Assembly (NCBI GenBank): GCA_024672315.1
Contig: GCA_024672315.1_4714.1
DNA from: a phage
Length of the DNA: 64,000 bases
Direction: 5' to 3' (one strand)
Of the stretch, positions 5,217 through 57,584 are shown one piece after another (within the stretch, counting starts at the first letter, position 1; the number at the start of each line of letters is the position of its first letter). The notes under the pieces are model-generated. The model saw nothing but the letters and a program-made list of their open reading frames with translations, made no database searches and had not been told where the DNA came from. Both the position numbers and the translations under genes were made by a program.

Positions 5217-7775
5217 TTACTGCTCATCACGTTCCAACAGATACTCGGAAGCGGTAATACCGTTTACCGTACGCACTGCTTTCAGACGAGTATCATCACT
5301 CAGAATCACGGTAACAGATTGCAGACCTTTTACTTTGGTTTCGAAGGTCTTGAACACCTGATCCAGCATACGAGCAATGCTTGGGTTGGTTGCAGCCGAT
5401 GCGTGAGTGTAACCGCTCTGGTTCAGCTTCAGAATCTTGGCGTTGGTCGGTACGCGAACAACAACATGCGGACGCATCGCGAATACGCTGTGATTGAACC
5501 AGTAAGCATCGTTGCTATCTTCGTCGGTAACGATGTCTGGATTAACACGCATATCCTCGATAGCCGCATCCGCCAAACGACGTTCGATTTCATCGGCGTC
5601 CAGAGAGCCATCTTTCTCCAGTTCTGCACGATACTCACTCATGGCGACCAGATGACGCTCACGATTCGCTGCAGATTTTTCGTGAGCGGCTTTCAGGTAG
5701 TCATGCATGTTGTACAGTTCAGCCATGGAAAGACGAATGTTCCATTGACCTTCGCCATCACGATTGCAGTAGAGACACTTCAGCATGTTGACCCAGGTGT
5801 AGTAGCAATTGGAGAATTCATCTTCAATGAACTTCTGGTCCATTTTAAGATCGTGAATCAGCCAACCGGACAGTTCTCCGATATCATCAACGAAGCTAGA
5901 GATGGTGGTTTCAGAGAAGTTCTTCGGTACGATACGTTTGATCAGCTTATTGACGTCTTTGGTCATGCTATCGTTCAGGAAATGCCAGATACGCAGAGGA
6001 ATGACATCTCGATACTGTTGCATGATCTGACGATAAGCTTTGATATCGTCGCTACGACCTTTATCAATAGACAACGCATCCAGGAATTCATGGATTGCAT
6101 CCAGCTCCTTGTCGGTATAGGTTCCCAGATAGGAATTGACCGTAGCCAGGAATGCTAATGCGTCGTTTTGGTTGACGTCGGTGTTGGTCTGCTGAATGAT
6201 TGCCACTGAAGCTTTGGTTTCAGCATCCTCAACGCTTGACGCTGCGATTGCGTCGGTGACGGTAAACAGTTTCATTTCGCGCTGCTCGCCGACAACGATT
6301 GGTTCGCGTTGAACCGGTTTGTTAAGGCTAACACGAACAACTTCTGCTTGCGCGATGCGATCCAGTTTTGCCATTTCCTGCTCTGCCATACGACGAGCGG
6401 TTGGATCTGATTCAAGTTCGATGTATTCCACTTCTTCCTCCGTGAGGGATGTAATGTCAACAATGGTTTCATGAAGAATTCCGTTTTCGTCGATACGTGC
6501 CCGACGAGCGAAGTGTCTGAAGTCATACAACGTCGGCCAACGACTATTAGGTGCAAAGTCTTTGGCTTTCAGACGCATCTGCATAAATTCTTCATGTTGA
6601 ACAACACGACCGTAACGCTTAGCATCTTCGGTCGCATCAATTGGATTAACGGTCTTTGTTACCGTAGCAGAACGAGCCGTACGAACGGGTTCCGGTTTCA
6701 CCTGCGCAGGTTCAGGTTGAACGGGTTTCTGCTGCCCAGCCTTAACATGCCATTCTGGCTCTTCGTACTGTTCAGCAAACTGTTCAGCCGCTGCAAAGAT
6801 ATCGTTGATACCACCAATATCTCCTTCAGGATTTGTCGAGTAAATCCGTGGTTGTGGTGCCTCGTAACGCGGCGCTGTAGCAGCAGGTGCATCATCAACG
6901 ATAGGATCGTCATCACCAACATCATACAAACGGTTGAACGCACAATCCTTCGAATCGATGTACGATGGCGCTTGTGGTTGAACAACCGTCGGCCGAGGTT
7001 GTGCGCCGTATCCTGGCGTTGTTGGAGCCATACCACGCATAACTGCCGGATTAGGCTGGTATTGCGGTTGCGGATAGGTTCCACCATACATGGCGTACGC
7101 TGGCTGTTGTGGTTGACCGTACCCGCCACTAACCATCGCGCTTGCTTGCGGGCCACGATAAGTCATCCCCATCTGCATCACCTGCTGCTTCAAACCACGT
7201 GACTTCTGCGCGATTTGTGCCAGGCTCCCGCTTTTATTCAGCTGCGTGTACTTATTCGCGGCTTCCGGGTTAATGCGTGATAATTCAATCGCGCGATAAT
7301 ATTCCGGGTACTGATTCGGTTCAAAGAGCCACGTTACAAGATGATACAGCGCAACTGTGCTCACGGCAGCAGAGACGATCTGGTCGTCGGACGCGTTCTG
7401 CGGCATCGGGTTGATGTAAGAGAACACGTTCCAACAACAGTCTTCAACAAGCGATTCCATCATCATATCGTTATTGGTATAACGTGCGACGAATTCGGTT
7501 TGTATTTTGTCTTGCTGAGCGAAGTCTTTCAGGACATTAAAGATAGCTTGACGGATTTTGACGATCGTTGCTTCTTGGGTGATGAAGTTATAGTTCTGCT
7601 GATATGAGGGTTGTTGGTATTGTGGTGGTTGATAGGCGTTATTCGGATATGCGCCGTACGGCGATTGCTGATACTGTTGCTGACGAACCTGTTCAGCCGC
7701 ATAATTAACCGTGCTCGTATAAGGGTTTTCGCTATAGCCCATTTGTTGATACATGTTGTTACTGCCATTATACAT
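5217..7775 (-). CDS. hypothetical protein (852 aa) with Q/Y/N/P/G-rich low-complexity N-terminal and internal regions
   Basis: Long ORF, AAGGAT RBS 8 nt upstream of ATG; N-terminus MYNGSNNMYQQMGYSENPY...QPPQYQQPSYQQNYNF and internal GGYGQPQQPAYAMYGGTYPQPQYQPNP segments. Confidence 0.8.
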   Translation of the reverse strand: MYNGSNNMYQQMGYSENPYTSTVNYAAEQVRQQQYQQSPYGAYPNNAYQPPQYQQPSYQQNYNFITQEATIVKIRQAIFNVLKDFAQQDKIQTEFVARYTNNDMMMESLVEDCCWNVFSYINPMPQNASDDQIVSAAVSTVALYHLVTWLFEPNQYPEYYRAIELSRINPEAANKYTQLNKSGSLAQIAQKSRGLKQQVMQMGMTYRGPQASAMVSGGYGQPQQPAYAMYGGTYPQPQYQPNPAVMRGMAPTTPGYGAQPRPTVVQPQAPSYIDSKDCAFNRLYDVGDDDPIVDDAPAATAPRYEAPQPRIYSTNPEGDIGGINDIFAAAEQFAEQYEEPEWHVKAGQQKPVQPEPAQVKPEPVRTARSATVTKTVNPIDATEDAKRYGRVVQHEEFMQMRLKAKDFAPNSRWPTLYDFRHFARRARIDENGILHETIVDITSLTEEEVEYIELESDPTARRMAEQEMAKLDRIAQAEVVRVSLNKPVQREPIVVGEQREMKLFTVTDAIAASSVEDAETKASVAIIQQTNTDVNQNDALAFLATVNSYLGTYTDKELDAIHEFLDALSIDKGRSDDIKAYRQIMQQYRDVIPLRIWHFLNDSMTKDVNKLIKRIVPKNFSETTISSFVDDIGELSGWLIHDLKMDQKFIEDEFSNCYYTWVNMLKCLYCNRDGEGQWNIRLSMAELYNMHDYLKAAHEKSAANRERHLVAMSEYRAELEKDGSLDADEIERRLADAAIEDMRVNPDIVTDEDSNDAYWFNHSVFAMRPHVVVRVPTNAKILKLNQSGYTHASAATNPSIARMLDQVFKTFETKVKGLQSVTVILSDDTRLKAVRTVNGITASEYLLERDEQ

Positions 7776-7809: not shown

Positions 7810-9609
7810 TCAATCGATTATGTCGTGATCGTTAATTTCTACAATTTCTTCATCGAATCGACCGACGTCTTTCTTCAAGCCTGCATTGGTTGCTGCAACG
7901 TCATTTGCAATTTGTGGAGTAATGATTAACCGACCACGCTCGTCGATAGGTGCGTACATACTGAACTTCTGACGTCCGGTTGGTTCGGAGTGCGGAAGAT
8001 TCAGATAGCTTGCACAGAACGGGATGGAACCACTAACCAAACGACTCTCGTCAGCCAATGCAGCACCGCCTGCATTTTGGCTCTGGAGAACAACATGTGT
8101 GCTCACTTTGAACAGCATGCAATCACCAGGTGACTGAATCGATGTTGCCACTTTCTCACGTTTATCACGATTGCTCTGGATATTGAGAATCGCTTCCGTT
8201 GCAACTTGATTTCGCAACGCCTTCTGTACATCGCGATTGGTCATCTCTTTACGGTTGTTCTGTCGTTTACCACGTTCTGTGGTTTTAAGATGGAACCCCA
8301 GTTTAAAGATGCTCTTACGCACATCCTCCATGACATATTCCAACACCATCAGTTCCTTACCGAACATCGTCGTGGTATCAACACGACTCATTTCGATAGT
8401 AACATTATCAATCAGATACGCCATAAATTCGTAGAAGTCGTCGCAAGGAATATTTTCCTGTTTGAACTTCTTCTGTTGAATCTCGTCAACGTAAAGATCG
8501 AGACTGTCGATGTGGTGGTTTACATCACGCAACAAACGCGCATCCGCATTGTTGTTATTAAAGATAATCAAACCGAGTAATGTACGCCAATGGTCTGGCG
8601 CATTCGCGAACTCTTCAACCGGATAGTCTTCCGGAAAACGATCGTAATAACGGTCGATGAGATATAAGAACGCACCGACAAGGCCAAGAACAATACGTTC
8701 CGTGCCTCCACGTCTTACAGCGATTTGAATATCAGGATGTTTATAACGTACAGCGCTAGCGCTACGGCTTTTACCGCTTTTGCTGATACTAAAGCCTTTA
8801 GGAATAACCCCCATGGTGCGATAGATTACCCATTGGTCGCGCGGAAAATCACGTTCAGCAAGGTTCCGTCCGGTTACGGCTTCGACACCTGCAAAACGTC
8901 GGAAACACTCACCCACCCCGTACTTCGCAAAGAGATAGTGACCCAGTGTGGTTACGCTGGTGTGGTTGATGTTGTCACCGTTCACTTTACTTTGTTTGGT
9001 AAGATGATAGATTTGCGACCAGGGTAATGACAGGTAATGACGATAATCGATACCGGTCGGTGTATCATTGCTCAGGAACTGATACGGTGTACGTTTAACC
9101 GTGATTTTGTCACGCGGAAGCATGATGAACGCCATGTCTTTCGTGTAACTGATTACCGGGTCAGCGAGCACCGCACTGAGAATGAAGTTCGCACCACGTA
9201 GACGCATTTTACCACCCTGACCTACCGCGGGTAATAGGAGAGGGTGTCGGATAATGCAGTAGTCCTTTCCGGGTTCACGACGGTCACCTGATTCCATCGC
9301 GCCGTACCAGCGGAATTCTAGCATCACCATAAACACATCGGAAGGCGCAAGGTCGAAGGTCAGCTTACCGCTATCCTTCCCTTTGGTTTTCTTTCCTCCG
9401 CTTAAGTAGTGGAACTGTTCGCGGGCCATACAGCGACGCAGGCCATGATACACCAGATCCTTAGGTAAACTATCTTTGCTGTTCCGCCAAAGACGATCAA
9501 CATAGGACTCAACATCTTGCATCTTATCGACGACGATGTTGCGTGCTATCTTCTCGTTCATCTTCGGTGCAAGCTCAGCGACAGCTTTGCAGAATCTAGG
9601 ATCCATCAC
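7810..9609 (-). CDS. hypothetical protein (599 aa)
   Basis: Long ORF; strong AAGGAG RBS 6 nt upstream of ATG at 9609. Confidence 0.8.
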   Translation of the reverse strand: MMDPRFCKAVAELAPKMNEKIARNIVVDKMQDVESYVDRLWRNSKDSLPKDLVYHGLRRCMAREQFHYLSGGKKTKGKDSGKLTFDLAPSDVFMVMLEFRWYGAMESGDRREPGKDYCIIRHPLLLPAVGQGGKMRLRGANFILSAVLADPVISYTKDMAFIMLPRDKITVKRTPYQFLSNDTPTGIDYRHYLSLPWSQIYHLTKQSKVNGDNINHTSVTTLGHYLFAKYGVGECFRRFAGVEAVTGRNLAERDFPRDQWVIYRTMGVIPKGFSISKSGKSRSASAVRYKHPDIQIAVRRGGTERIVLGLVGAFLYLIDRYYDRFPEDYPVEEFANAPDHWRTLLGLIIFNNNNADARLLRDVNHHIDSLDLYVDEIQQKKFKQENIPCDDFYEFMAYLIDNVTIEMSRVDTTTMFGKELMVLEYVMEDVRKSIFKLGFHLKTTERGKRQNNRKEMTNRDVQKALRNQVATEAILNIQSNRDKREKVATSIQSPGDCMLFKVSTHVVLQSQNAGGAALADESRLVSGSIPFCASYLNLPHSEPTGRQKFSMYAPIDERGRLIITPQIANDVAATNAGLKKDVGRFDEEIVEINDHDIID

Positions 9610-9645
9610 ACACTCCTTTCAGAAAGTTGCTTAAGCAGATTAAAG

Positions 9646-11082
9646 TTACTTTTTCGATGACGCCTTCTCAAGAATCTTGAAAAAGGTCATACCTATACCG
9701 ACAACGGCCGCAGTTATACTCGCAGCGGCTTTCCAAACATCGACGTTACGTTGACGTCGCGCTTCTTCCGCTTCACGTTGTCTTTTTGCCTCTTCATCAC
9801 GTCGGCGTATCTCGGCAGCAAACTCGTCGTGCTTACGTTTGGATTCTTCGTCTCGACGACGAAGTTCAGCGACGAATTCTTCATGTTTGCGTTTAGCCTC
9901 GTCATCACGACGTTTTAAATCAGCTTGATAATCTTCGTGTATTTGTTTACGTAGATCATCTTGACGTTTCATTTCGGCTTGGTGTTGTTCCATCCTACGT
10001 TTTTGTTCGTCTTTAAGCTGATCGAGTTCGGCTTTATGTTGTTCATCGCGCAGCTTTGCGTCGGCGCGATGCGCCTCATGCATCTGCGCGATAACTGCCT
10101 TGTGTTCATCCGCCATACGTCGCATTTCAGCCATCACCCCTTTAAGGGTTTCTTCTGATGCCTTACGTTCGTAGCTACGCTGGTCGAAATCATTTTTGTA
10201 GGCTTCTTTTTGGATGGGGTCGCGCCAATGCAATGCCGATTCACGTGTCGGAAAAACATTGTACTTCCACATCTCTTTTTCCAAATCTTCGACCGGTACG
10301 AAGATGGAGTCATTATTCCCGAAGGTAACCAACATACCTGGCGCGCCTGCTCCATTCGTTGGTTTTATTTCGAACGCTTTCCCCAGCACGTTAACCCATA
10401 AGCTATACGGATTATGAAAGTCGGGTGGCGTCCAATGGATAGTGAGTTGCGTTCCGAGAATTCGGAAACCCTCTGTTTTTCCCGTCAAGCTCCGCGCGCA
10501 CGTTGCGATGTAGGGGTGATCAATCCCTTTCGTAACGTGGTCTGCGCTTTTGTATTCTCCTTTAACTTTTACGATTGCCACGTTGATTTGCGCGACATAA
10601 GCGGGTTGATTAAAGTTCAACGTGTTGAGGTCAATTTGACATATTTCATCCAGCGTATCGTACCAGTCTTGCTGGTCTAATAGGCGCGGCATTTTCTCGG
10701 TGTTAACAATACGACGGATATGCGGTTTCCTTATCGCGTAACCTGTGCCGTTTTTAACACGGAGTATATCCCGACGTCTACCCGCGTAGACGAAGTTTCT
10801 GAATGCACCATTCGCATTAGATACGTCATGGCTGTCAACTATTACAGGACTACGAAATTTTGAACGTCGTACGATCCTGAATGTATTGCCGTCCTCAACC
10901 CTACCAGGAATGTACTGGAACATATTGTCGGAGGTGATAACCAACACGGTATGGCCAGATTCATTAATACATGCCCATCCTAATTCCAGGTCATATAACG
11001 GTTCAGCATAACCGTCAATGCGATAAGCGTGCGTACCATCCCACGGTTCGAACGCCGTATCACATATTGGCATGGAGGGCAT
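9646..11082 (-). CDS. tail-anchored membrane protein with long E/R/K-rich charged helix (478 aa)
   Basis: ATG at 11082 preceded by GGAGG (6-nt spacer); ORF-track TTG start at 11088 rejected. C-terminal 130 aa of near-tandem charged repeats (ELRRRDEESKRKHDEF / EIRRRDEEAKRQ) followed by a hydrophobic segment AAASITAAVVGIGMTFFKIL and a basic tail. Confidence 0.75.
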   Translation of the reverse strand: MPSMPICDTAFEPWDGTHAYRIDGYAEPLYDLELGWACINESGHTVLVITSDNMFQYIPGRVEDGNTFRIVRRSKFRSPVIVDSHDVSNANGAFRNFVYAGRRRDILRVKNGTGYAIRKPHIRRIVNTEKMPRLLDQQDWYDTLDEICQIDLNTLNFNQPAYVAQINVAIVKVKGEYKSADHVTKGIDHPYIATCARSLTGKTEGFRILGTQLTIHWTPPDFHNPYSLWVNVLGKAFEIKPTNGAGAPGMLVTFGNNDSIFVPVEDLEKEMWKYNVFPTRESALHWRDPIQKEAYKNDFDQRSYERKASEETLKGVMAEMRRMADEHKAVIAQMHEAHRADAKLRDEQHKAELDQLKDEQKRRMEQHQAEMKRQDDLRKQIHEDYQADLKRRDDEAKRKHEEFVAELRRRDEESKRKHDEFAAEIRRRDEEAKRQREAEEARRQRNVDVWKAAASITAAVVGIGMTFFKILEKASSKK

Positions 11083-11231
11083 CGTCAACCTCCATCTGAT
11101 TGAAAACTATCACGCATAACGCATTTCCCTTTTCTTGTTCTTATCGAGCCGACAGCCGACGGTTTCAGTATCGTTCCTAGCGCGAGAACGACCTTACGTG
11201 TTGTCTATGCCTTATTCATCGCAGGCGTCTG

Positions 11232-11257
11232 TCACCTAGGTAATGTAAGCGTCAAAT
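11232..11257 (-). promoter_or_regulatory. conserved AT-rich motif (partial copy), candidate phage promoter
   Basis: TCACCTAGGTAATGTAAGCGTCAAA shares the TCACCTAGGTAATGTA core with the 17.7-kb and 57.4-kb copies; upstream of gene 9646-11082. Confidence 0.3.
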
Positions 11258-11290
11258 TTTTTCTATTCGCAACGATAAACGGCATAGAAA

Positions 11291-11320
11291 CCTCCCCCAA
11301 CCCTTACGGGCTGAGGGAGG
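11291..11320. terminator. GC-rich stem-loop, repeat-family member
   Basis: CCTCCCCCAACCC-TTAC-GGGCTGAGGGAGG (13-bp stem, 2 mismatches), about 100 nt downstream of the capsid-candidate stop; flanks GCATAGAA / TTATG. Confidence 0.4.
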
Positions 11321-11419
11321 CTGACTTATGTATCACGGTGCCGGATGAATGTCCGGTGCAATGAAACCATCCGCAACGTTGTCGTCAAGAATATCATCCA
11401 ACGAAGCAGCTACGGTAGT

Positions 11420-13642
11420 TCAGTTAGTCTGAACAGGCAGCTTGATGTTTTCAGTGTAGACCTTACGCAGGTTCACAACGTTAATCAGACCCAGCAGCGG
11501 GCAGTTGTTAACGAAGCGGCAGCGCGGCTGAACCATGGTTTCTTTAGAAACCTGACCGTTACGGGTAACCTGAGCAACAGATACCAGTTCCGGTACATAC
11601 AGGAACATACCGAAGGTCAGCGGATCCGGAGAACCCTGGATACCACGAGACAGGGTCACGAAGATCTTATCACGCAGCATGACGTTCGGGTTATCTACAA
11701 CCACGAAGTTGAAGCTTACACCAACGGTACGGAAATCACCATCGGTCTGCAGGAACTGCGGGATGTAGTTGTCAGTTGCTACTACGCAACGCGGTTTCTC
11801 ATCAGCGTTGGAAGACAGCAGCTGCAGAGCTGGCTGATAACCAGACTCGGAGTACATGCGGTATGCCATTTCACGAATCACGTTCATGATCGCAGCAGAC
11901 ACTTCAGCACGACGTTCTGCAGTGGTGGTACCCTGAACAGATTTCTCCAGGTCCAGATTGATTTCTTCGAACCACGGACGGATCAGGTAACGACCGAAAC
12001 CTTCGATCTGGATGTCGCCGAACTGACGGAAGCGAGAGGTCGCAACCGCTTTCAGTGCGTCTTTGTAGCTGAACAGTTTCTCAACCATCAGGTTGTCGAA
12101 ACGTGCGTTAGCAGCCTGGATCAGAACGTCCAGGTCAGCAGCGTTTTCTTCCCAATCCAGCGGACGAGGAATGGAGAACGGAGCCAGCAGGCCGATTGCG
12201 TAACGTTCTTGCTTCATGTTGAAGTCAAGGTGCTTACCGCGTTCACGACGGTTGCTGTTGTTACGACGGATACGCAGTTCGTAACCAACCAGTTTGAAGC
12301 TCAGGTCTTCAGCCAGCTGTTTGAACTCTTCGCTCTTACGCGGTTGTTCGATGTTGTCCTGATCAACCAGGCGATACAGTTCAGCGTTAGCGCCGTTAAC
12401 ACGCAGACCGGCTTTCTCTACGTTGGAAGAACCGTAAACTTCGATTGCCAGCTGAGCAGCGGATTTCGAATCGATGATGTCCTGCAGCGCTTCAGCTCGT
12501 GCACCTTTAACGTCAACGGTGTGCTCATCAACGAAGATGGAGTGGGTGTCGAACGCCAGGGTCATTTTGCGGAAGTCGCCTTCCAGGGATTTCTGGAAAC
12601 CGTTGGTGATCAGACCAGATACGTCGAACGGTACGTAAGAGGTTTTGCTGTGCTTGGTAGATTTGATTTCCACCAGGATTTTGGTCAGCGTGATCTGAGC
12701 ATCCAGCGCATCGGTGTTGTCGCTGTAACCGTTAGCCAGAATGCTATCGTCTTCAGCGATACCGATCATGTCGATCAGTTTATCAACAGCCAGGTAAGAC
12801 GTTTTATAAGTTACGCCTTTAATTTCGATGTCGCGCGGAGCAACGATAGTTTTGTCAACGAAGTACTGCGCGTTAGCATCGTCAGCACGATAGATCGGAT
12901 GCAGATCGGTCACGTCGTTGGACAGAACGTCGTTGTACATGAACGCATCCAGCAGCGGACGACGTACCCAATCAGCCGGAGTACCGTCAGCGTTACGGCG
13001 CAGGTGGTTGAACACCAGCGGACGACGGAAAGATACATCGTAACCGATCTGGTTCGGAGCCAGAACGATGGTGTTGTACAGTTCGTTACCCATGCGGCTC
13101 AGACGAGAAGCCTTCACGTTGAACACAACGGAGTACGGCATCATGTCACGCAGTTCTTTCTGGTCGTAGGACAGCTGAACCAGTTCTTCAGATTCGCAAC
13201 CGCAGGAATCAGCAGCCATCATGACGAAGTTAGAGCTGTCAACTTCACGGCCAGACGGAGTGGTGCTGATGTTCATGGAACGTGCTTGTTTAGCATATTC
13301 CACCGGGTTGCCATGAGCCAGCATGATCAGTGCTGCTGCACGAGCCTGCTGTGCGTTCATGGTGAACAGCTGTTCTTCAATACGCTGCTTCTCTTCCGGA
13401 GTGGTGGTTTCGAAGCCCAGCATGGACAGAACCGGTTCTTCTGCTTTACGGATGTCGCTGCTGAAGCTCTTAACATCCATTTCGTTAACCAGTTTGTCCA
13501 TGGATTTGAAATCAACCTTAGAAGCAGATTCCATAGACAGGAAGGTGTTCTCCAGACCTTTGTCTGCTGGTTTGCTACCATTAGCGGTCAGGAACTGGCG
13601 AGTGGCCGCGACCTGTTGGCTAAGAAGGGTTTTATCATTCAT
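11420..13642 (-). CDS. candidate major capsid protein (phiKZ-like, 740 aa)
   Basis: Strongest codon bias in the window (CTG/CGT/GGT/AAC/TTC-rich), implying very high expression; size matches the ~740-750 aa major capsid proteins of phiKZ-like phages (from memory); AAGGA RBS; embedded in head-protein context. Sequence identity to a capsid protein not verified. Confidence 0.55.
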   Translation of the reverse strand: MNDKTLLSQQVAATRQFLTANGSKPADKGLENTFLSMESASKVDFKSMDKLVNEMDVKSFSSDIRKAEEPVLSMLGFETTTPEEKQRIEEQLFTMNAQQARAAALIMLAHGNPVEYAKQARSMNISTTPSGREVDSSNFVMMAADSCGCESEELVQLSYDQKELRDMMPYSVVFNVKASRLSRMGNELYNTIVLAPNQIGYDVSFRRPLVFNHLRRNADGTPADWVRRPLLDAFMYNDVLSNDVTDLHPIYRADDANAQYFVDKTIVAPRDIEIKGVTYKTSYLAVDKLIDMIGIAEDDSILANGYSDNTDALDAQITLTKILVEIKSTKHSKTSYVPFDVSGLITNGFQKSLEGDFRKMTLAFDTHSIFVDEHTVDVKGARAEALQDIIDSKSAAQLAIEVYGSSNVEKAGLRVNGANAELYRLVDQDNIEQPRKSEEFKQLAEDLSFKLVGYELRIRRNNSNRRERGKHLDFNMKQERYAIGLLAPFSIPRPLDWEENAADLDVLIQAANARFDNLMVEKLFSYKDALKAVATSRFRQFGDIQIEGFGRYLIRPWFEEINLDLEKSVQGTTTAERRAEVSAAIMNVIREMAYRMYSESGYQPALQLLSSNADEKPRCVVATDNYIPQFLQTDGDFRTVGVSFNFVVVDNPNVMLRDKIFVTLSRGIQGSPDPLTFGMFLYVPELVSVAQVTRNGQVSKETMVQPRCRFVNNCPLLGLINVVNLRKVYTENIKLPVQTN

Positions 13643-13791
13643 TGAAAGTATCCTTTACAGAATTAACTTATATAAGTCGGTCGATAGACCATAGCGTACA
13701 CGCGTGCATGCGCCACTATAGTATCAGTAAACACTTACCGTTATTGAGGTCGTGATACAACACTAAAAATGCCGCATAACTTTTCCCTACG

Positions 13792-17512: not shown

Positions 17513-17708
17513 CGTATTTTTACCTTTCTATGTTAGGTGGATTGCGGATAGAAGAATCAATGCATAGATTGATCGTTCTATGTTAGAAATTATTGCTGAA
17601 CTGGTTATGGTTATAACGCGTGTTTTCGTATGCTGACGGGTCGCGTATTAATAAGGCCATGACTGTATCCTCGATTATTAAGAGAAATTTACAACGGTAA
17701 CAGTAACC

Positions 17709-17747
17709 GCTCTTATCACCTAGGTAATGTAGTCGTGAAATAAACTG
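17709..17747 (-). promoter_or_regulatory. conserved AT-rich motif, candidate phage promoter
   Basis: Plus-strand GCTCTTATCACCTAGGTAATGTAGTCGTGAAATAAACTG; minus-strand reading contains TACATTACC; near-identical copies at 57427-57508 and partly at 11232-11257, each between a GC-rich hairpin and a downstream minus-strand gene. Confidence 0.35.
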
Positions 17748-17775
17748 GAGTAACGAGAAATAAGACAGCATAGAA

Positions 17776-17807
17776 CCCTCTCCCTTCCCTGATGGGTTGG
17801 GAGAGGG
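17776..17807. terminator. GC-rich stem-loop, repeat-family member
   Basis: CCCTCTCCCTTCCC-TGAT-GGGTTGGGAGAGGG; flanks GCATAGAA / ATATA; adjacent to conserved promoter-like motif 17709-17747. Confidence 0.4.
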
Positions 17808-31008: not shown

Positions 31009-32349
31009 TTAACCTTTGGTATAAGCTTTAACGAGAGTGTTGATAAATGAAGTCAGTGCGCGAAGATACTGGTAAGCGAATTGGTTTTCAATACGGTTCT
31101 CTTTACCGCAAAGCAGAATCGCGCGCTTAACGAGCTTAGGATAGATCTCGATGTACGGTTGGTAGCTCGCATCAAAATTCTGCTCGTTGAAGCGTTTCAT
31201 GGTGATTTCCTGGATGCGCTCCATGGTGCGAATTTTATTGCGAGAGAACATCTCAGAGAAAGCACGTCCGCGTTTTGTTACCATCAACAGATCTTTCGCG
31301 AACGTCAGTTGTCGAACGCTACGCAAATCGTCAGGTGTCGGCAGGACGTACGTTTCTGGATCGCTATCCCATTCAACATCTTCAACGACAATATCCAAGT
31401 CGAGGTAACGTTTAACCACATCGATGATATTGTCTTTTGACGCATCGAATTCTTTCAAGAAGACCGCACCGTTGATGTAGCGGATACGTTTTCCGGAAAC
31501 CGTTGGGGTGATAACGTCAGTACCTTCCACGGAACCGCGATTTTCCAGTGTCGATTTGACGGCGTGCAAGAAAGACAGATAATCAACGGGAAGTTTTTCG
31601 ACCTTATCTAAATGGAAGTCGATGATGTTTAATCCTAACCCATCAATAACCGAATGACCATCCGATTTAAGGAACATCTGATTGAAGGTATCGATGTTGC
31701 TTTTCAGTGCGTCTACACCACCAACGTTGTTACGGTTAGGGAAAAGCGTCCGCCATTCTGGTTTAAACACAACCTCTTTATTTTCCTCGTATTTGCCTTT
31801 AGGCATTTGTTCGAGGTCTGCAACGGCTTTCTGAAAATTGCGTGTCTCGTCGTAAACAAGACGGGTAAGCTTCTCGAAGGCTGCTGCCAAGGTCAGGGCA
31901 ATATCAACAATGATATCCCAGATCTTTTTCATGGCTTTTACAACGGTGTCCTTAAACCCTTCAACAACCAAAGCTTCTCCAACCTCAACACGATCGGTTG
32001 GAGTCAGCAATGCTTCGGAGGGCAGACCCAGAGCAATCGATGCGGATTCTTGCATATTACGAACTAATGCAACGTCACTGTAGTTAGCCGATTCGATAGT
32101 CGGAGCAACATCAAAACTGATTTCCCGCAGTGCAGCAACAGCAGGGAAAGCACGATCAAGTGCATCTTCATGTTCGTCGATTGTCGCTAAACGTAATTCA
32201 ACGCCATCAGCATCGATGACTTCAGCGGTCGGCTCCACAGCAAGCGCCTCAGCAACAATAGGATCTTTTTCAAACGCCTCAAGGCTGATATCGCCTTGGG
32301 TCGCAAATAGCGGTATGTGTACCATGTGTTGTCTCCAGTAATGATTCAA
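31009..32349 (-). CDS. putative internal head protein paralog (446 aa)
   Basis: GGAGAC RBS; acidic AxE-rich N-terminus; family helix motif (VVKAMKKIWDIIVDIALTLAAAFEKL). Confidence 0.75.
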   Translation of the reverse strand: MNHYWRQHMVHIPLFATQGDISLEAFEKDPIVAEALAVEPTAEVIDADGVELRLATIDEHEDALDRAFPAVAALREISFDVAPTIESANYSDVALVRNMQESASIALGLPSEALLTPTDRVEVGEALVVEGFKDTVVKAMKKIWDIIVDIALTLAAAFEKLTRLVYDETRNFQKAVADLEQMPKGKYEENKEVVFKPEWRTLFPNRNNVGGVDALKSNIDTFNQMFLKSDGHSVIDGLGLNIIDFHLDKVEKLPVDYLSFLHAVKSTLENRGSVEGTDVITPTVSGKRIRYINGAVFLKEFDASKDNIIDVVKRYLDLDIVVEDVEWDSDPETYVLPTPDDLRSVRQLTFAKDLLMVTKRGRAFSEMFSRNKIRTMERIQEITMKRFNEQNFDASYQPYIEIYPKLVKRAILLCGKENRIENQFAYQYLRALTSFINTLVKAYTKG

Positions 32350-32373
32350 AAGATAAACCTGAGCGGCATAGAA

Positions 32374-32405
32374 CCCTCTCCCAACCCGTCAGGGAAGGGA
32401 GAGGG
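32374..32405. terminator. GC-rich stem-loop, repeat-family member
   Basis: CCCTCTCCCAACCC-GTCA-GGGAAGGGAGAGGG immediately after the highly expressed 32428-33750 gene; flanks GCATAGAA / AATATG. Confidence 0.45.
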
Positions 32406-57426: not shown

Positions 57427-57508
57427 GCTCTTATCACTAAGGTAATGCTTACGCGTCGCGTTCATGATGCATGGCATCATGAAGGTAATATAGTCGTGAA
57501 ATAAACTG
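57427..57508 (-). promoter_or_regulatory. conserved AT-rich motif (split copy), candidate phage promoter
   Basis: Same motif as 17709-17747, split by a 33-nt insertion carrying two small palindromes (ACGCGTCGCGT; TCATGATGC-ATG-GCATCATGA); minus-strand reading contains exact TATATTAC. Confidence 0.35.
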
Positions 57509-57540
57509 CGTTAACACGAAATAAAAACAGCATAGAAACC

Positions 57541-57584
57541 TCCTCCCCCATCCTTCAAGAGGACGGTGGGAAGAGGGAGAGATT
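57541..57584. terminator. GC-rich stem-loop, degenerate repeat-family member
   Basis: CCTCCTCCCCCA...GGTGGGAAGAGG imperfect hairpin; flank GCATAGAA upstream; adjacent to conserved promoter-like motif. Confidence 0.3.

What the first reader, a model, noticed from the sequence alone, without database searches (positions are those of the whole stretch)
9646..11082. Tail-anchored protein with an E/R/K-rich charged helix built from near-tandem repeats
Seen: the C-terminal 130 residues consist of highly charged near-tandem repeats (ELRRRDEESKRKHDEFAA, EIRRRDEEAKRQREAEEA), visible also as DNA repeats around 9760-9900, followed by a single hydrophobic segment and a basic tail. Inference: a stable single alpha-helix spacer ending in a C-terminal membrane anchor; the gene sits directly downstream of the capsid candidate.
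Basis: partly seen in the sequence, partly recalled or inferred. Interest (0 to 1): 0.45.

Follow-up and report, generated by a model that had tools for sequence, protein, structure and literature searches.

The report
Tail-anchored core protein of nucleus-forming phages
The gene encodes a predicted membrane-anchored protein on a long, stiff, charged helical stalk, and it is the E. coli-phage version of one of 21 genes found only in "nucleus-forming" jumbo phages, which makes it a concrete candidate for linking cell membranes to the phage nucleus.

Summary
ORF 9646-11082 (minus strand, 478 aa) lies directly downstream of a PhiKZ-type major capsid gene in a Goslar-like E. coli jumbo phage and is the homolog of Goslar gp040. 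Residues ~300-446 form one long predicted helix. It is built from about seven 18-residue units (z = 13.7 against shuffles) with strong ER/K-type salt-bridge patterning. It ends in a 17-residue uncharged segment and a basic tail. The DNA-level repeat is weak.

The protein is not an orphan. It is the Goslar-clade member of Chimalliviridae core gene cg35 (phiKZ gp122, PhiPA3 gp138, RAY gp001), one of 21 genes unique to chimallin-encoding phages and annotated as hypothetical. The C-terminal hydrophobic anchor is present in all 57 full-length database relatives and in 8 of the 10 other phage lineages checked. It degenerates to an amphipathic helix in phiKZ and PhiPA3.

Published data show four things. 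The protein is absent from Goslar virions. The PhiPA3 ortholog co-purifies with ChmA and ChmB. phiKZ gp122 knockdown perturbs phage transcription. No transposon insertions are tolerated in phiKZ gp122.

Best reading: an early-expressed, tail-anchored stalk protein that tethers a membrane to the nuclear shell. The architecture is well supported; the function is inferred.

The parts
9646..11082 (-). CDS of the 478-aa protein (stop codon included). It is the homolog of Goslar gp040 and of Chimalliviridae core gene cg35.
   Evidence: ORF list and sequence. The surrounding 3-kb stretch (window 9000-12000) is 98.7% identical in DNA to Goslar and its gp040. Prichard 2023 Table S3 gives cg35 = Goslar gp040 = phiKZ gp122 = RAY gp001*.
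11089..11093 (-). Ribosome-binding site GGAGG, 6 nt upstream of the ATG at 11082.
   Evidence: Read directly from the sequence.
10198..11082 (-). Beta-rich N-terminal domain (residues 1-295). This is the family-defining domain and has no known fold match.
9745..10197 (-). Long charged helix (residues 296-446, about 22 nm if fully helical). This is the ER/K-type stalk.
   Evidence: AF2 models a single helix 289-475 with pLDDT above 90 for 350-430. Charge-pair statistics and the 3.62-residue hydrophobic period are.
9760..10137 (-). About seven 18-residue (five-turn) repeat units, residues 316-441. The three best-conserved are residues 388-441 (window 9760-9921).
   Evidence: Periodicity peaks at 18, 36 and 54. 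z = 13.7 against shuffles, with the unit register. Close relatives differ by indels of 18 and 11 residues here.
9730..9759 (-). Juxtamembrane motif RRQRNVDVWK (residues 442-451). It corresponds to the family motif R-K-D/N-S/T-x-E/D-x-W/L-K.
   Evidence: C-terminal comparison of 15 family members and alignment A3.
9679..9729 (-). Predicted tail anchor AAASITAAVVGIGMTFF (residues 452-468): 17 uncharged residues, rich in Gly and Ala.
   Evidence: Kyte-Doolittle 1.76-1.82. Hessa sum +1.1 kcal/mol, against at least +9.6 elsewhere in the protein. The anchor-plus-tail region is 97-100% identical to the two close relatives compared by region (P0003, P0004), and the anchor 15-mer is identical in all but one of the 13 Goslar-clade sequences. 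An equivalent segment is present in all 57 full-length homologs.
9649..9678 (-). Basic C-terminal tail KILEKASSKK (residues 469-478).
   Evidence: Family tails are KKK, KKQ, RKKE or KGLFSN.
11291..11320 (-). Perfect 15-bp GC-rich hairpin between the capsid gene and this gene, followed by UUUCUAUG. It is terminator-like, and the TATG matches the phiKZ late-promoter core.
   Evidence: RNA fold gives -29.7 kcal/mol, z = -5.9, with 0 of 200 shuffles as stable. The same element recurs at three other sites in the window and in phiKZ. The TATG consensus is from PMC7618050.
11232..11256 (-). Promoter-like motif TTTGACGCT-TACATTAC-CTAG-GTGA, about 150 nt upstream of the ATG.
   Evidence: An identical 15-mer occurs at 17716-17730. 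TAYATTAC lies in the same intergenic spacer in the Goslar record (L001), which mirrors the window, and in six further phages held as eight loci: L002-L004 (one phage), L005, L006, L010, L012 and L013. It matches the published phiKZ (TATATTAC) and 201phi2-1 promoter motifs in PMC7058600 Table 2.
7810..9609 (-). Downstream neighbour, 39 nt away with no terminator found: an nvRNAP beta-type subunit (Goslar gp039, phiKZ gp123). It is probably co-transcribed with the finding ORF.
   Evidence: phrog_2943 'polymerase', E = 7e-120. Annotation. The terminator scan found nothing on the minus strand. Synteny holds in all 15 loci.
11420..13642 (-). Upstream neighbour: the PhiKZ-type major capsid protein (Goslar gp041).
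   Evidence: PF25620, E = 5.3e-217.

Best explanation
The ORF is the Goslar-clade ortholog of Chimalliviridae signature core gene cg35 (phiKZ gp122, PhiPA3 gp138, 201phi2-1 gp202, RAY gp001).

Architecture, supported by computation. A cytoplasmic, beta-rich N-terminal domain of about 295 residues sits on a rigid, highly charged alpha-helical stalk. In this clade the stalk has been expanded to about 150 residues (roughly 22 nm) by duplication of an 18-residue, five-turn unit. The stalk ends in a short Gly/Ala-rich C-terminal transmembrane helix with a basic tail. This is a tail-anchored protein with the N-terminus in the cytoplasm.

Expression, inferred. The gene is insulated from the capsid gene by a strong hairpin. 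It has its own phiKZ-type TAYATTAC promoter motif and is contiguous with an nvRNAP subunit gene. It is therefore probably made early, together with the nvRNAP.

Function, inferred. The protein inserts post-translationally into a cytoplasm-facing membrane, either the early-phage-infection (EPI) vesicle or the inner membrane. It then holds its N-domain at a set distance from that membrane to engage the chimallin shell or ChmB. In this way it tethers or hands over between the lipid compartment and the protein nucleus. Loss would stall the switch to nucleus- and nvRNAP-dependent gene expression.
For: Identity:
- hhalign of the N-domain against phiKZ gp122-type proteins gives Prob 94.7%, E = 6.4e-8.
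- PHROG links are transitive: P0016 matches phrog_7727 at 1.5e-7, and Xoo-sp14_122 links phrog_7727 to phrog_15024, the phiKZ gp122 family.
- An exhaustive phmmer search finds two 31%-identical relatives with the same architecture and the same synteny.
- BFVD fold hits are all uncharacterized jumbo-phage or uncultured-myovirus proteins, and they include the RP12 and Eowyn positional orthologs and a 345-aa 201phi2-1 protein of matching size.
- Prichard 2023 Table S3 independently lists cg35 = Goslar gp040 = phiKZ gp122 = RAY gp001*, with the asterisk marking genes unique to chimallin-encoding phages.

Architecture:
- AF2 models a continuous helix 289-475.
- Salt-bridge pairing is 0.56 against 0.29 +/- 0.035 per residue.
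- The 18-residue period has z = 13.7.
- Indels among relatives that are at least 83% identical are 18 and 11 residues, which is 5.0 and 3.06 helical turns, so the helical phase is kept.
- The anchor is present in 57 of 57 full-length homologs and in Goslar-like, RP12, Xoo-sp14, PCH45, SPN3US-like, Eowyn, Vibrio, RSF1 and Phobos lineages.
- Among the close relatives compared by region (P0003, P0004), the anchor and the membrane-proximal helix are the most conserved parts (90-100%) and the distal stalk the least (65-67%).

Biology, from the literature:
- gp040 is absent from the Goslar virion LC-MS/MS table, which does list gp037, gp038, gp039 and gp041.
- The PhiPA3 ortholog YP_009217217.1 was found by ChmA miniTurboID and in ChmA-GFP and GFP-ChmB pulldowns (PMC10643120).
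- There are no transposon insertions in PHIKZ120-124, against thousands of reads in PHIKZ125 and PHIKZ126 (PMC12676376 supplement).

Expression: the hairpin and promoter-like cassette.
Against: - The anchor is marginal. It has 17 uncharged residues and a dG sum slightly above zero, and both flanks are basic, so topology is not dictated by charge. No dedicated TM predictor or experiment was available.
- In phiKZ and PhiPA3, the only members with experimental data, the C-terminal helix carries D, E and K (dG sum +5.3 and +6.1). It cannot be a classical TM segment. Either the membrane link was lost there or it is not the conserved function.
- The PhiPA3 pulldown evidence is thin: one peptide in ChmA-GFP and a normalized area of 1e-5 in TurboID.
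- The phiKZ knockdown and transposon phenotypes may be polar on the adjacent nvRNAP gene gp123. The non-core gp121 also shows zero insertions.
- The phiKZ gp122 knockdown was not reported to cluster with the ChmA, nvRNAP and PicA knockdowns.
- The assignment of TAYATTAC to the early class rests on my recollection of Ceyssens 2014. The paper I could read calls it only a 'predicted promoter'.
- A fixed tether to the cell membrane seems at odds with the rotating Goslar nucleus.
Confidence: 0.42

Rival explanations
1. Membrane platform for procapsid assembly or capsid handling. The tail anchor places the protein in the inner membrane. The N-domain binds portal, MCP or ChmB, so that proheads initiate at the membrane or are handed to the shell. 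It would act as a non-virion assembly factor, functionally like T4 gp40/gp20 membrane-initiated prohead assembly.
For: - The gene lies immediately downstream of the MCP and of the gp042-type vertex protein in every lineage.
- Absence from virions fits a chaperone.
- The PhiPA3 ortholog was recovered with GFP-ChmB, which pulls down capsid proteins and binds portal.
- Capsids of Pseudomonas chimalliviruses are reported to assemble on the membrane (PMC10299810 introduction).
- A TATG late-promoter core follows the hairpin.
Against: - A strong hairpin separates the gene from the MCP, and it is contiguous with an nvRNAP gene instead.
- The phiKZ knockdown phenotype is transcriptional at 30 min. That is not expected for a head-assembly factor unless it is a polar effect.
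- The family is restricted to nucleus-forming phages, whereas membrane-initiated head assembly is general.
Confidence: 0.2
2. Not a membrane protein. The C-terminal hydrophobic or amphipathic helix is a protein-protein element for oligomerization or for insertion into the chimallin lattice. The protein would be a soluble, shell-associated fibre that projects its N-domain from the nuclear surface.
For: - The phiKZ and PhiPA3 C-termini are amphipathic and charged, not TM-like.
- The Gly/Ala-rich small-xxx-small pattern favours helix-helix packing.
- The anchor's dG is marginal.
- The stalk has a significant 3.62-residue hydrophobic stripe, compatible with a straight bundle.
- The PhiPA3 ortholog is shell-proximal by TurboID and pulldown.
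Against: - In 57 of 57 database homologs and 8 of the 10 other phage lineages checked, the segment is a fully uncharged 13-20-mer at the extreme C-terminus, flanked by Lys or Arg. This is the standard tail-anchor layout.
- Sub-threshold Pfam matches of these C-termini are all to TM regions: CD99L2, LiaI-LiaF TM1 and SLATT.
Confidence: 0.2
3. Accessory factor of the non-virion RNA polymerase, for example in assembly, import licensing or regulation. It would be co-expressed with subunit gp039/gp123, and the membrane-like tail would be incidental.
For: - Adjacency to the nvRNAP beta-type subunit is invariant, with a 10-39 nt gap.
- Knockdown of phiKZ gp122, and of gp124 on the other side of gp123, strongly alters phage transcription.
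- There are no transposon insertions in the 121-124 block.
Against: - The phenotypes could simply be polar on gp123.
- The purified phiKZ nvRNAP described in PMC7618050 consists of beta/beta'-like subunits plus gp68, without gp122.
- A conserved C-terminal anchor is hard to reconcile with a factor that acts inside the nucleus.
- The knockdown profile was not reported to cluster with the nvRNAP knockdowns.
Confidence: 0.1

Closest known systems
Chimalliviridae core gene cg35: phiKZ gp122, PhiPA3 gp138 (YP_009217217.1), 201phi2-1 gp202, RAY gp001 (PHROGs 15024, 7727 and 7286; function unknown)
   Same: Homologous N-domain. Identical position between the major capsid gene and the nvRNAP beta-type subunit gene. 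The same layout of N-domain, helix and C-terminal hydrophobic helix. Listed as orthologs by Prichard 2023.
   Different: The Goslar clade has a stalk 2-3 times longer (147 residues against 46-86). The stalk is of ER/K type, with 0.56 salt pairs per residue against 0.17-0.30, and is built from 18-residue repeats. phiKZ and PhiPA3 have a charged amphipathic C-terminus instead of an uncharged anchor. Sequence identity of the N-domain to phiKZ gp122 is only about 16%.
E. coli C-tail-anchored inner-membrane proteins ElaB, YqjD and YgaM (DUF883) (recalled from my own knowledge)
   Same: A helical cytoplasmic part is followed by a Trp/Pro-flanked, Gly/Ala-rich short C-terminal TM helix that ends in two or three basic residues. 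This shows that such anchors insert in the phage's host.
   Different: No detectable homology: Pfam scans of the whole proteins and of the C-terminal 59-70 residues give no DUF883 hit even at E <= 10. The host proteins are about 100 residues, lack the beta-rich N-domain and bind ribosomes.
ER/K single alpha-helix (SAH) domains, e.g. myosin VI/X and caldesmon (own knowledge)
   Same: Net-neutral, E/R/K-dominated helix with dense i/i+4 opposite-charge pairs and few large hydrophobic residues. The presumed role is a rigid spacer.
   Different: DEKR content is 54%, with additional Q, A and H. There is a strict 18-residue repeat and a significant 3.62-residue hydrophobic stripe, so a straight dimer or bundle is possible. 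The monomeric state is untested.
Eukaryotic tail-anchored rod-like tethers (golgin-84, giantin, CASP; KASH-type nuclear-envelope linkers) (own knowledge; functional analogy only)
   Same: A C-terminal tail anchor, a long rigid helical rod and an N-terminal capture domain held tens of nanometres from the membrane.
   Different: Unrelated in sequence and in origin. These tethers use coiled coils rather than an ER/K helix. No capture activity has been shown here.
T4 gp40/gp20 membrane-initiated prohead assembly (own knowledge; analogy for the rival explanation)
   Same: A non-virion membrane protein encoded among the head genes.
   Different: No homology was sought or found. The transcriptional knockdown phenotype of the phiKZ ortholog does not fit.

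Membership tests
Chimalliviridae core gene cg35 (phiKZ gp122 family; phrog_15024 / 7727 / 7286) | Sequence homology of the N-terminal domain | tested here: met
   hhalign gives Prob 94.7%, E = 6.4e-8 over 219 columns. Transitive HMM links run through P0015 and P0016. The direct PHROG hit of the window protein is only E = 0.17. Foldseek against BFVD gives 28 hits at E <= 1e-3, all uncharacterized jumbo-phage or uncultured-myovirus proteins. Prichard 2023 Table S3 agrees.
Chimalliviridae core gene cg35 (phiKZ gp122 family; phrog_15024 / 7727 / 7286) | Conserved position: DnaB(-) | gp119-like | MCP | (small ORF) | cg35 | nvRNAP beta-type subunit | gp124-like | tested here: met
   The same order is found in the window and Goslar, two metagenomic relatives, phiKZ, PhiPA3, Xoo-sp14, PCH45, RP12, SPFM4, Eowyn, Vibrio Yong XC31, RSF1 and Phobos.
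Chimalliviridae core gene cg35 (phiKZ gp122 family; phrog_15024 / 7727 / 7286) | Restricted to chimallin-encoding phages | tested here: met
   The exhaustive phmmer search of 1.84 billion representatives found only 3 clusters. All homologs with context lie next to a PhiKZ_MCP gene. Table S3 marks the gene with the 'unique' asterisk.
Tail-anchored (C-tail-anchored) membrane proteins | A single hydrophobic segment within about 30 residues of the C-terminus, with no signal peptide and no other TM segment | tested here: met
   The uncharged 17-mer spans residues 452-468 and is followed by 10 residues. The best 19-mer elsewhere has a dG sum of +9.6. The N-terminus MPSMPICDTAFEPWDG is not hydrophobic.
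Tail-anchored (C-tail-anchored) membrane proteins | The segment is long and hydrophobic enough to span a bilayer | tested here: inconclusive
   Kyte-Doolittle 1.76-1.82 is just above the usual 1.6 cut-off. The Hessa sum is +1.1 kcal/mol for 15 residues (family range -1.7 to +1.95; phiKZ and PhiPA3 +5.3 and +6.1). Only 17 residues are uncharged. No TMHMM- or DeepTMHMM-type tool was available.
Tail-anchored (C-tail-anchored) membrane proteins | Post-translational insertion and integral membrane localisation | not testable with these tools
   Needs fractionation, carbonate extraction and microscopy with and without residues 447-478.
ER/K single alpha-helix (SAH) domains | E/K/R-dominated sequence with enriched i/i+3 and i/i+4 opposite-charge pairs | tested here: met
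   DEKR 54%, net charge 0, 0.56 pairs per residue against 0.29 +/- 0.035 in 2000 shuffles.
ER/K single alpha-helix (SAH) domains | No hydrophobic seam, so no coiled-coil or bundle interface | tested here: inconclusive
   Large hydrophobic residues make up only 16%, but they show a significant 3.62-residue periodicity (0 of 500 shuffles). The period is not a 3.5-residue heptad.
ER/K single alpha-helix (SAH) domains | Monomeric, thermally stable isolated helix in solution | not testable with these tools
   Needs CD, AUC and SAXS on residues 296-446. The AF2 monomer helix cannot discriminate.
ElaB/YqjD/YgaM (DUF883) tail-anchored ribosome-binding proteins | Match to the Pfam DUF883 N- or C-terminal models | tested here: not met
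   No DUF883 hit for seven whole family proteins at E <= 1, nor for six C-terminal fragments at E <= 10.
Virion structural, scaffold or decoration protein of the capsid module | Presence in purified virions | tested here: not met
   Goslar virion LC-MS/MS Table S4 lists gp037, gp038, gp039 and gp041 but not gp040. The protein sheet is complete down to its 'Sum' row. A scaffold that leaves the head would also be absent, so only a structural role is excluded.

The most novel reading that the evidence does not exclude
cg35 is the first phage-encoded membrane component of the nucleus-forming pathway. It is a tail-anchored tether that new phage transcripts install in the EPI-vesicle (or inner) membrane. 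Its N-domain captures or nucleates the chimallin/ChmB shell at a distance set by the stalk, and so couples the lipid compartment to the protein nucleus for genome hand-off. Stalk length, changed in whole helical-turn quanta of 18 and 11 residues, would act as a molecular ruler tuned per host or phage.
Probability: 0.25. Interest if true: 0.85.

Novelty: new variant of a known kind. Interest (0 to 1): 0.6.

Why it matters
How the injected genome of a nucleus-forming phage passes from the lipid-bound early infection vesicle to the protein-bound nucleus is an open question. So is what, if anything, connects membranes to the chimallin shell. The 2025 Annual Review I searched contains no instance of the terms 'transmembrane', 'membrane protein' or 'membrane-anchored'.

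Of the 21 genes unique to this phage family, most still have no function. This analysis gives one of them a concrete and easily testable architecture: tail anchor, rigid stalk and capture domain. It also connects three scattered published observations about its orthologs: shell and ChmB co-purification, a transcriptional knockdown phenotype, and intolerance of transposon insertions.

If the membrane link is real, it gives a direct handle on vesicle-to-nucleus transfer. Possible experiments are anchor deletion, stalk-length swaps and knockdown followed by cryo-ET. If it is not real, the family still offers a natural series of stalk lengths and anchor types for studying how the shell is decorated.

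Tried and rejected
DNA-level repeat.
- Tandem Repeats Finder at minimum score 30 found nothing.
- The repeat finder returned only short chance-level pairs.
- The repeat is therefore a protein-level feature from old duplications.

Direct annotation of the window protein.
- Pfam and PHROGs gave no hit at default thresholds.
- tblastn of the N-domain against 50,697 phage records at E <= 10 found only Goslar.
- The full-length word-indexed search returned only relatives at least 83% identical, probably because charged words saturated the candidate list.
- Homology was obtained only through the exhaustive phmmer search, positional orthologs and profile-profile comparison.

Structure.
- The N-domain was modelled poorly with a 10-sequence MSA (pLDDT below 50) and only moderately with 29 sequences (pLDDT 55).
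- The profile search of PDB sequences found nothing.

Other rejected ideas.
- Homology of the anchor to ElaB/DUF883: no Pfam support.
- Sigma-70 promoters: none in 9400-11600, as expected for a phage that uses its own RNA polymerases.
- Heptad coiled coil: the hydrophobic period is 3.62, not 3.5, and no family member shows a significant heptad signal.
- Virion or decoration protein: rejected because the protein is absent from the Goslar virion proteome.
- Lysis protein (holin or spanin type): the only hint is a weak phrog_790 hit at E = 0.56 on P0016, and the gene lies in the conserved head/nvRNAP block. Not pursued.

Literature searches with no useful result.
- 'Goslar' with 'gp40'.
- 'Goslar', 'chimallivir' and 'transmembrane'.
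- 'tail-anchored' with 'chimallin'.
- 'EPI vesicle' with 'transmembrane' returned only unrelated defence papers.
- The EPI-vesicle constituents preprint does not mention gp122.
- 'gp122' in two Churi papers refers to a different PhiPA3 gene, the gp014 homolog.

Tool quirk. The tools print the string 'gp138' as 'xxxxx'. I resolved the identity through accession YP_009217217.1.
Full report
WHAT IS THERE

The stretch around the finding (window 9000-12000) is 98.7% identical in DNA to Escherichia phage vB_EcoM_Goslar, a nucleus-forming jumbo phage. The finding corresponds to the homolog of Goslar gp040, annotated 'hypothetical protein'. The ORF runs 9646-11082 on the minus strand. The ATG at 11082 has a GGAGG 6 nt upstream.

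The gene upstream on the same strand (11420-13642) is a PhiKZ-type major capsid protein (PF25620, E = 5e-217). The gene 39 nt downstream (7810-9609) is an nvRNAP beta-type subunit (phrog_2943, E = 7e-120).

CHECK OF THE OBSERVATION

Residues 301-445 are dominated by R, E, A, K, D and Q.

- Self-comparison shows sharp peaks at offsets 18, 36 and 54 and nowhere else.
- Against 2000 composition-preserving shuffles, taking the best offset each time, the offset-18 score is 13.7 standard deviations out.
- In register there are about seven 18-residue units (residues 316-441). The last three are the most alike, sharing 9-12 of 18 residues.
- At DNA level the same three units are only 56-63% identical. 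Neither TRF nor the repeat finder picks them up. The repeat is therefore old and maintained at protein level.
- The only hydrophobic stretch in the protein is AAASITAAVVGIGMTFF (residues 452-468), followed by KILEKASSKK.

HELIX AND ANCHOR

AlphaFold2 models residues 289-475 as one continuous helix, with pLDDT above 90 for roughly residues 350-430.

The stalk (residues 300-446):
- It has net charge 0.
- It has 0.56 opposite-charge i/i+3 and i/i+4 pairs per residue, against 0.29 +/- 0.035 when shuffled.
- Only 16% of its residues are large hydrophobics.
- These are the hallmarks of ER/K-type single alpha helices.
- The few large hydrophobic residues nevertheless line up with a 3.62-residue period (0 of 500 shuffles). 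That period matches the 18-residue, five-turn repeat rather than a heptad. A straight dimer or bundle is therefore not excluded.

The C-terminal segment:
- Its summed Hessa insertion free energy is +1.1 kcal/mol over 15 residues, against at least +9.6 for any 19-mer elsewhere.
- It is marginal but typical of tail anchors. There is no N-terminal signal-like sequence.
- I could not run a dedicated TM predictor.

IT IS NOT AN ORPHAN

The direct approaches failed:
- The window protein gave no Pfam or PHROG hit.
- The word-indexed search found only near-identical relatives.
- tblastn against phage genomes found only Goslar.

An exhaustive phmmer search with the N-domain found two metagenomic proteins at 31% identity. 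Both have a charged helix, a terminal hydrophobic segment and a basic tail. Both sit between a PhiKZ_MCP gene and a gene of about 600 aa.

I then read the gene at the same position, immediately upstream of the nvRNAP subunit gene, in ten other chimalliviruses. These were phiKZ (gp122), PhiPA3, Xoo-sp14, PCH45, RP12, an SPN3US-like phage, Eowyn, Vibrio phage Yong XC31, RSF1 and Phobos.

- Profile-profile comparison of the Goslar-clade alignment with the RP12, Xoo-sp14, PCH45 and phiKZ proteins gives Prob 94.7%, E = 6.4e-8 over 219 N-domain columns.
- PHROG HMMs link the groups transitively.
- A Foldseek search of BFVD with the N-domain model returns 28 hits at E <= 1e-3. All are uncharacterized proteins of jumbo phages or uncultured myoviruses. 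They include a 345-aa 201phi2-1 protein (B3FJ64) and the RP12 and Eowyn positional orthologs.
- Independently, Prichard et al. 2023 list cg35 = Goslar gp040 = phiKZ gp122 = RAY gp001*. It is described as 'hypothetical', and the asterisk marks the genes unique to chimallin-encoding phages (PMC10299810 Table S3).

HOW CONSERVED IS THE ARCHITECTURE

- All 57 full-length database homologs end in an uncharged 15-mer with a dG sum below 2.5, followed by a short basic tail.
- Among the 15 family sequences compared (11 lineages), every one has a terminal uncharged 13-20-mer except phiKZ and PhiPA3. In those two the last helix carries D, E and K, with dG sums of +5.3 and +6.1.
- A juxtamembrane motif recurs: R-K-D/N-S/T-x-E/D-x-W/L-K-x-I/L-P. 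In the window protein it reads RQRNVDVWK.
- The stalk varies widely in length, from 46 to 147 residues. Only the Goslar clade and its two 31% relatives have ER/K character.
- Between the window protein and two close relatives compared by region (P0003, P0004), the distal stalk is the most variable region (65-67% identity). The N-domain is 91-98% identical and the anchor region 97-100%.
- Length variants of 460, 478, 489 and 507 aa differ by indels of 18 and 11 residues. These equal 5.0 and 3.06 helical turns. The azimuthal phase between head domain and anchor is therefore preserved while the length changes by 2.7 or 1.65 nm. That is what one expects of a rigid spacer.

N-DOMAIN

- With a 29-sequence alignment, AF2 gives a beta-rich model of moderate confidence (pLDDT 55, strand core 70-83).
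- The family profile hits no PDB sequence.
- The fold and activity of the head domain remain unknown.

EXPRESSION CONTEXT

Between the capsid gene and this gene lies a perfect 15-bp GC hairpin (-29.7 kcal/mol, z = -5.9). It is followed by UUUCUAUG and, about 35 nt later, by TTTGACGCT-TACATTAC-CTAG-GTGA.

- The same cassette recurs at three other minus-strand sites in the window.
- phiKZ has the same layout between gp120 and gp121, with its canonical TATATTAC.
- TAYATTAC occurs in this particular spacer in the Goslar record (L001), which mirrors the window, and in six further phages held as eight loci (L002-L004 are one phage).
- PMC7058600 tabulates TATATTAC (phiKZ) and TTTRARR_BTATATTACDWHDGTG (201phi2-1) as the predicted promoter of these phages.
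- PMC7618050 gives (-3)TATG(+1) as the nvRNAP late-promoter core.
- That TATATTAC is the early, vRNAP-dependent class is my recollection of Ceyssens et al. 2014, not something I could check here.
- No terminator was found between this gene and the nvRNAP subunit gene.

I infer that the gene is transcriptionally insulated from the capsid gene and co-expressed with the nvRNAP subunit, probably early.

WHAT THE LITERATURE SAYS ABOUT ORTHOLOGS

- gp040 is absent from the Goslar virion LC-MS/MS table, which lists gp037, gp038, gp039 and gp041 (bioRxiv 10.64898/2026.04.21.720040, Table S4).
- The PhiPA3 ortholog (YP_009217217.1, printed as 'xxxxx' by the tools) was detected by ChmA miniTurboID and in ChmA-GFP and GFP-ChmB pulldowns. 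It was noted as conserved but of unknown role. The signal was weak (PMC10643120).
- In the phiKZ antisense screen both oligomers against PHIKZ122 scored '+'. [quoted passage not shown]
- In phiKZ transposon mutagenesis, PHIKZ120-124 carry no insertions, while PHIKZ125 and PHIKZ126 carry thousands of reads (PMC12676376 supplement).
- The last two results could be polar on the nvRNAP gene gp123.
- I found no paper describing a membrane anchor or single alpha helix for this family, and no occurrence of the terms 'transmembrane', 'membrane protein' or 'membrane-anchored' in the 2025 review.

MECHANISM

Supported by computation: a tail-anchored layout with a rigid charged stalk and an N-terminal domain of unknown fold; membership of a chimallivirus-specific core family; and non-virion status.

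Inferred: early expression; insertion into a cytoplasm-facing membrane; and engagement of the chimallin/ChmB shell by the head domain at a stalk-defined distance.

I favour a membrane-to-shell tether or hand-over factor acting around the EPI-vesicle-to-nucleus transition. I put about 0.75 on the architecture and about 0.3 on this function, for 0.42 overall.

The rivals are:
- a membrane platform for procapsid assembly or docking (0.2);
- a soluble shell-associated fibre whose C-terminal helix is a protein-protein element, which the phiKZ and PhiPA3 amphipathic tails suggest (0.2);
- an nvRNAP accessory factor (0.1).

VERDICT

The implied link to the capsid is probably only positional.

The family itself is known (cg35), so this is not a new gene. 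The tail-anchor-plus-ER/K-stalk reading of a nucleus-phage signature gene was not found in any paper I could search. The Goslar-clade repeat expansion is a distinct variant. I rate interest at 0.6. It is a specific, cheap-to-test lead on an open question, but it rests on prediction and on indirect data from orthologs.

Noticed in passing
window ~11232-11320, ~17716-17800, ~32330-32400, ~57434-57560 (all minus strand); L006 7840-7908: A regulatory cassette recurs at four sites. It has a GC hairpin (CCCTCyCCC...GGGrGAGG), then (G/T)TTCTATGCyG, then about 30 nt later TTTnACGnyTAyATTACCTAGGTGA. phiKZ has the same layout after its capsid gene. It looks like a terminator combined with the TATG late-promoter core and the TAYATTAC promoter motif of phiKZ-like phages.
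   Followed up: partly
window 17583-17771 (-): The 62-aa ORF annotated in Goslar as gp047 starts at the ATG inside the conserved TTCTATGC element. It also contains the TACATTACCTAGGTGA motif. It may be a regulatory region rather than a gene.
   Followed up: no
window 5217-7775 (-): The 852-aa neighbour two genes downstream is the homolog of Goslar gp038 and the positional equivalent of phiKZ gp124. It has Q/Y/P-rich low-complexity stretches at residues ~1-70 and ~210-300. Goslar virion MS estimates about 25 copies per virion. phiKZ gp124 knockdown also strongly perturbed phage transcription, and the gene tolerates no transposon insertions.
   Followed up: partly
window 11345-13645 (+): A 766-aa ORF lies antisense to the whole major capsid gene. 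It is a shadow ORF with odd, V/F/R-rich composition, almost certainly not a gene.
   Followed up: no
P0004, P0007, P0012, P0013 (homologs): Close homologs are deposited as proteins of Salmonella enterica and E. coli O157 isolates, some on contigs of about 244 kb. This suggests complete Goslar-like phage genomes riding along in bacterial isolate assemblies, either as a carrier state or as contamination.
   Followed up: no
L006 7952-8404; L010 7288-7821; L011 6831-7529; L013 6777-7136; L008 8235-10209: Several lineages carry one or more extra, non-conserved ORFs between the capsid gene and the cg35 gene (for example phiKZ gp121). The Goslar clade, RP12, Xoo-sp14, Eowyn, RSF1 and Phobos have none. 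phiKZ gp121 overlaps gp122 by 44 nt and also shows zero transposon insertions.
   Followed up: no
tool outputs: The literal string 'gp138' is replaced by 'xxxxx' in every tool output. This affects the PhiPA3 ortholog's gene name and an unrelated locus tag (AVT69_gp138). I resolved the identity through accession YP_009217217.1.
   Followed up: yes
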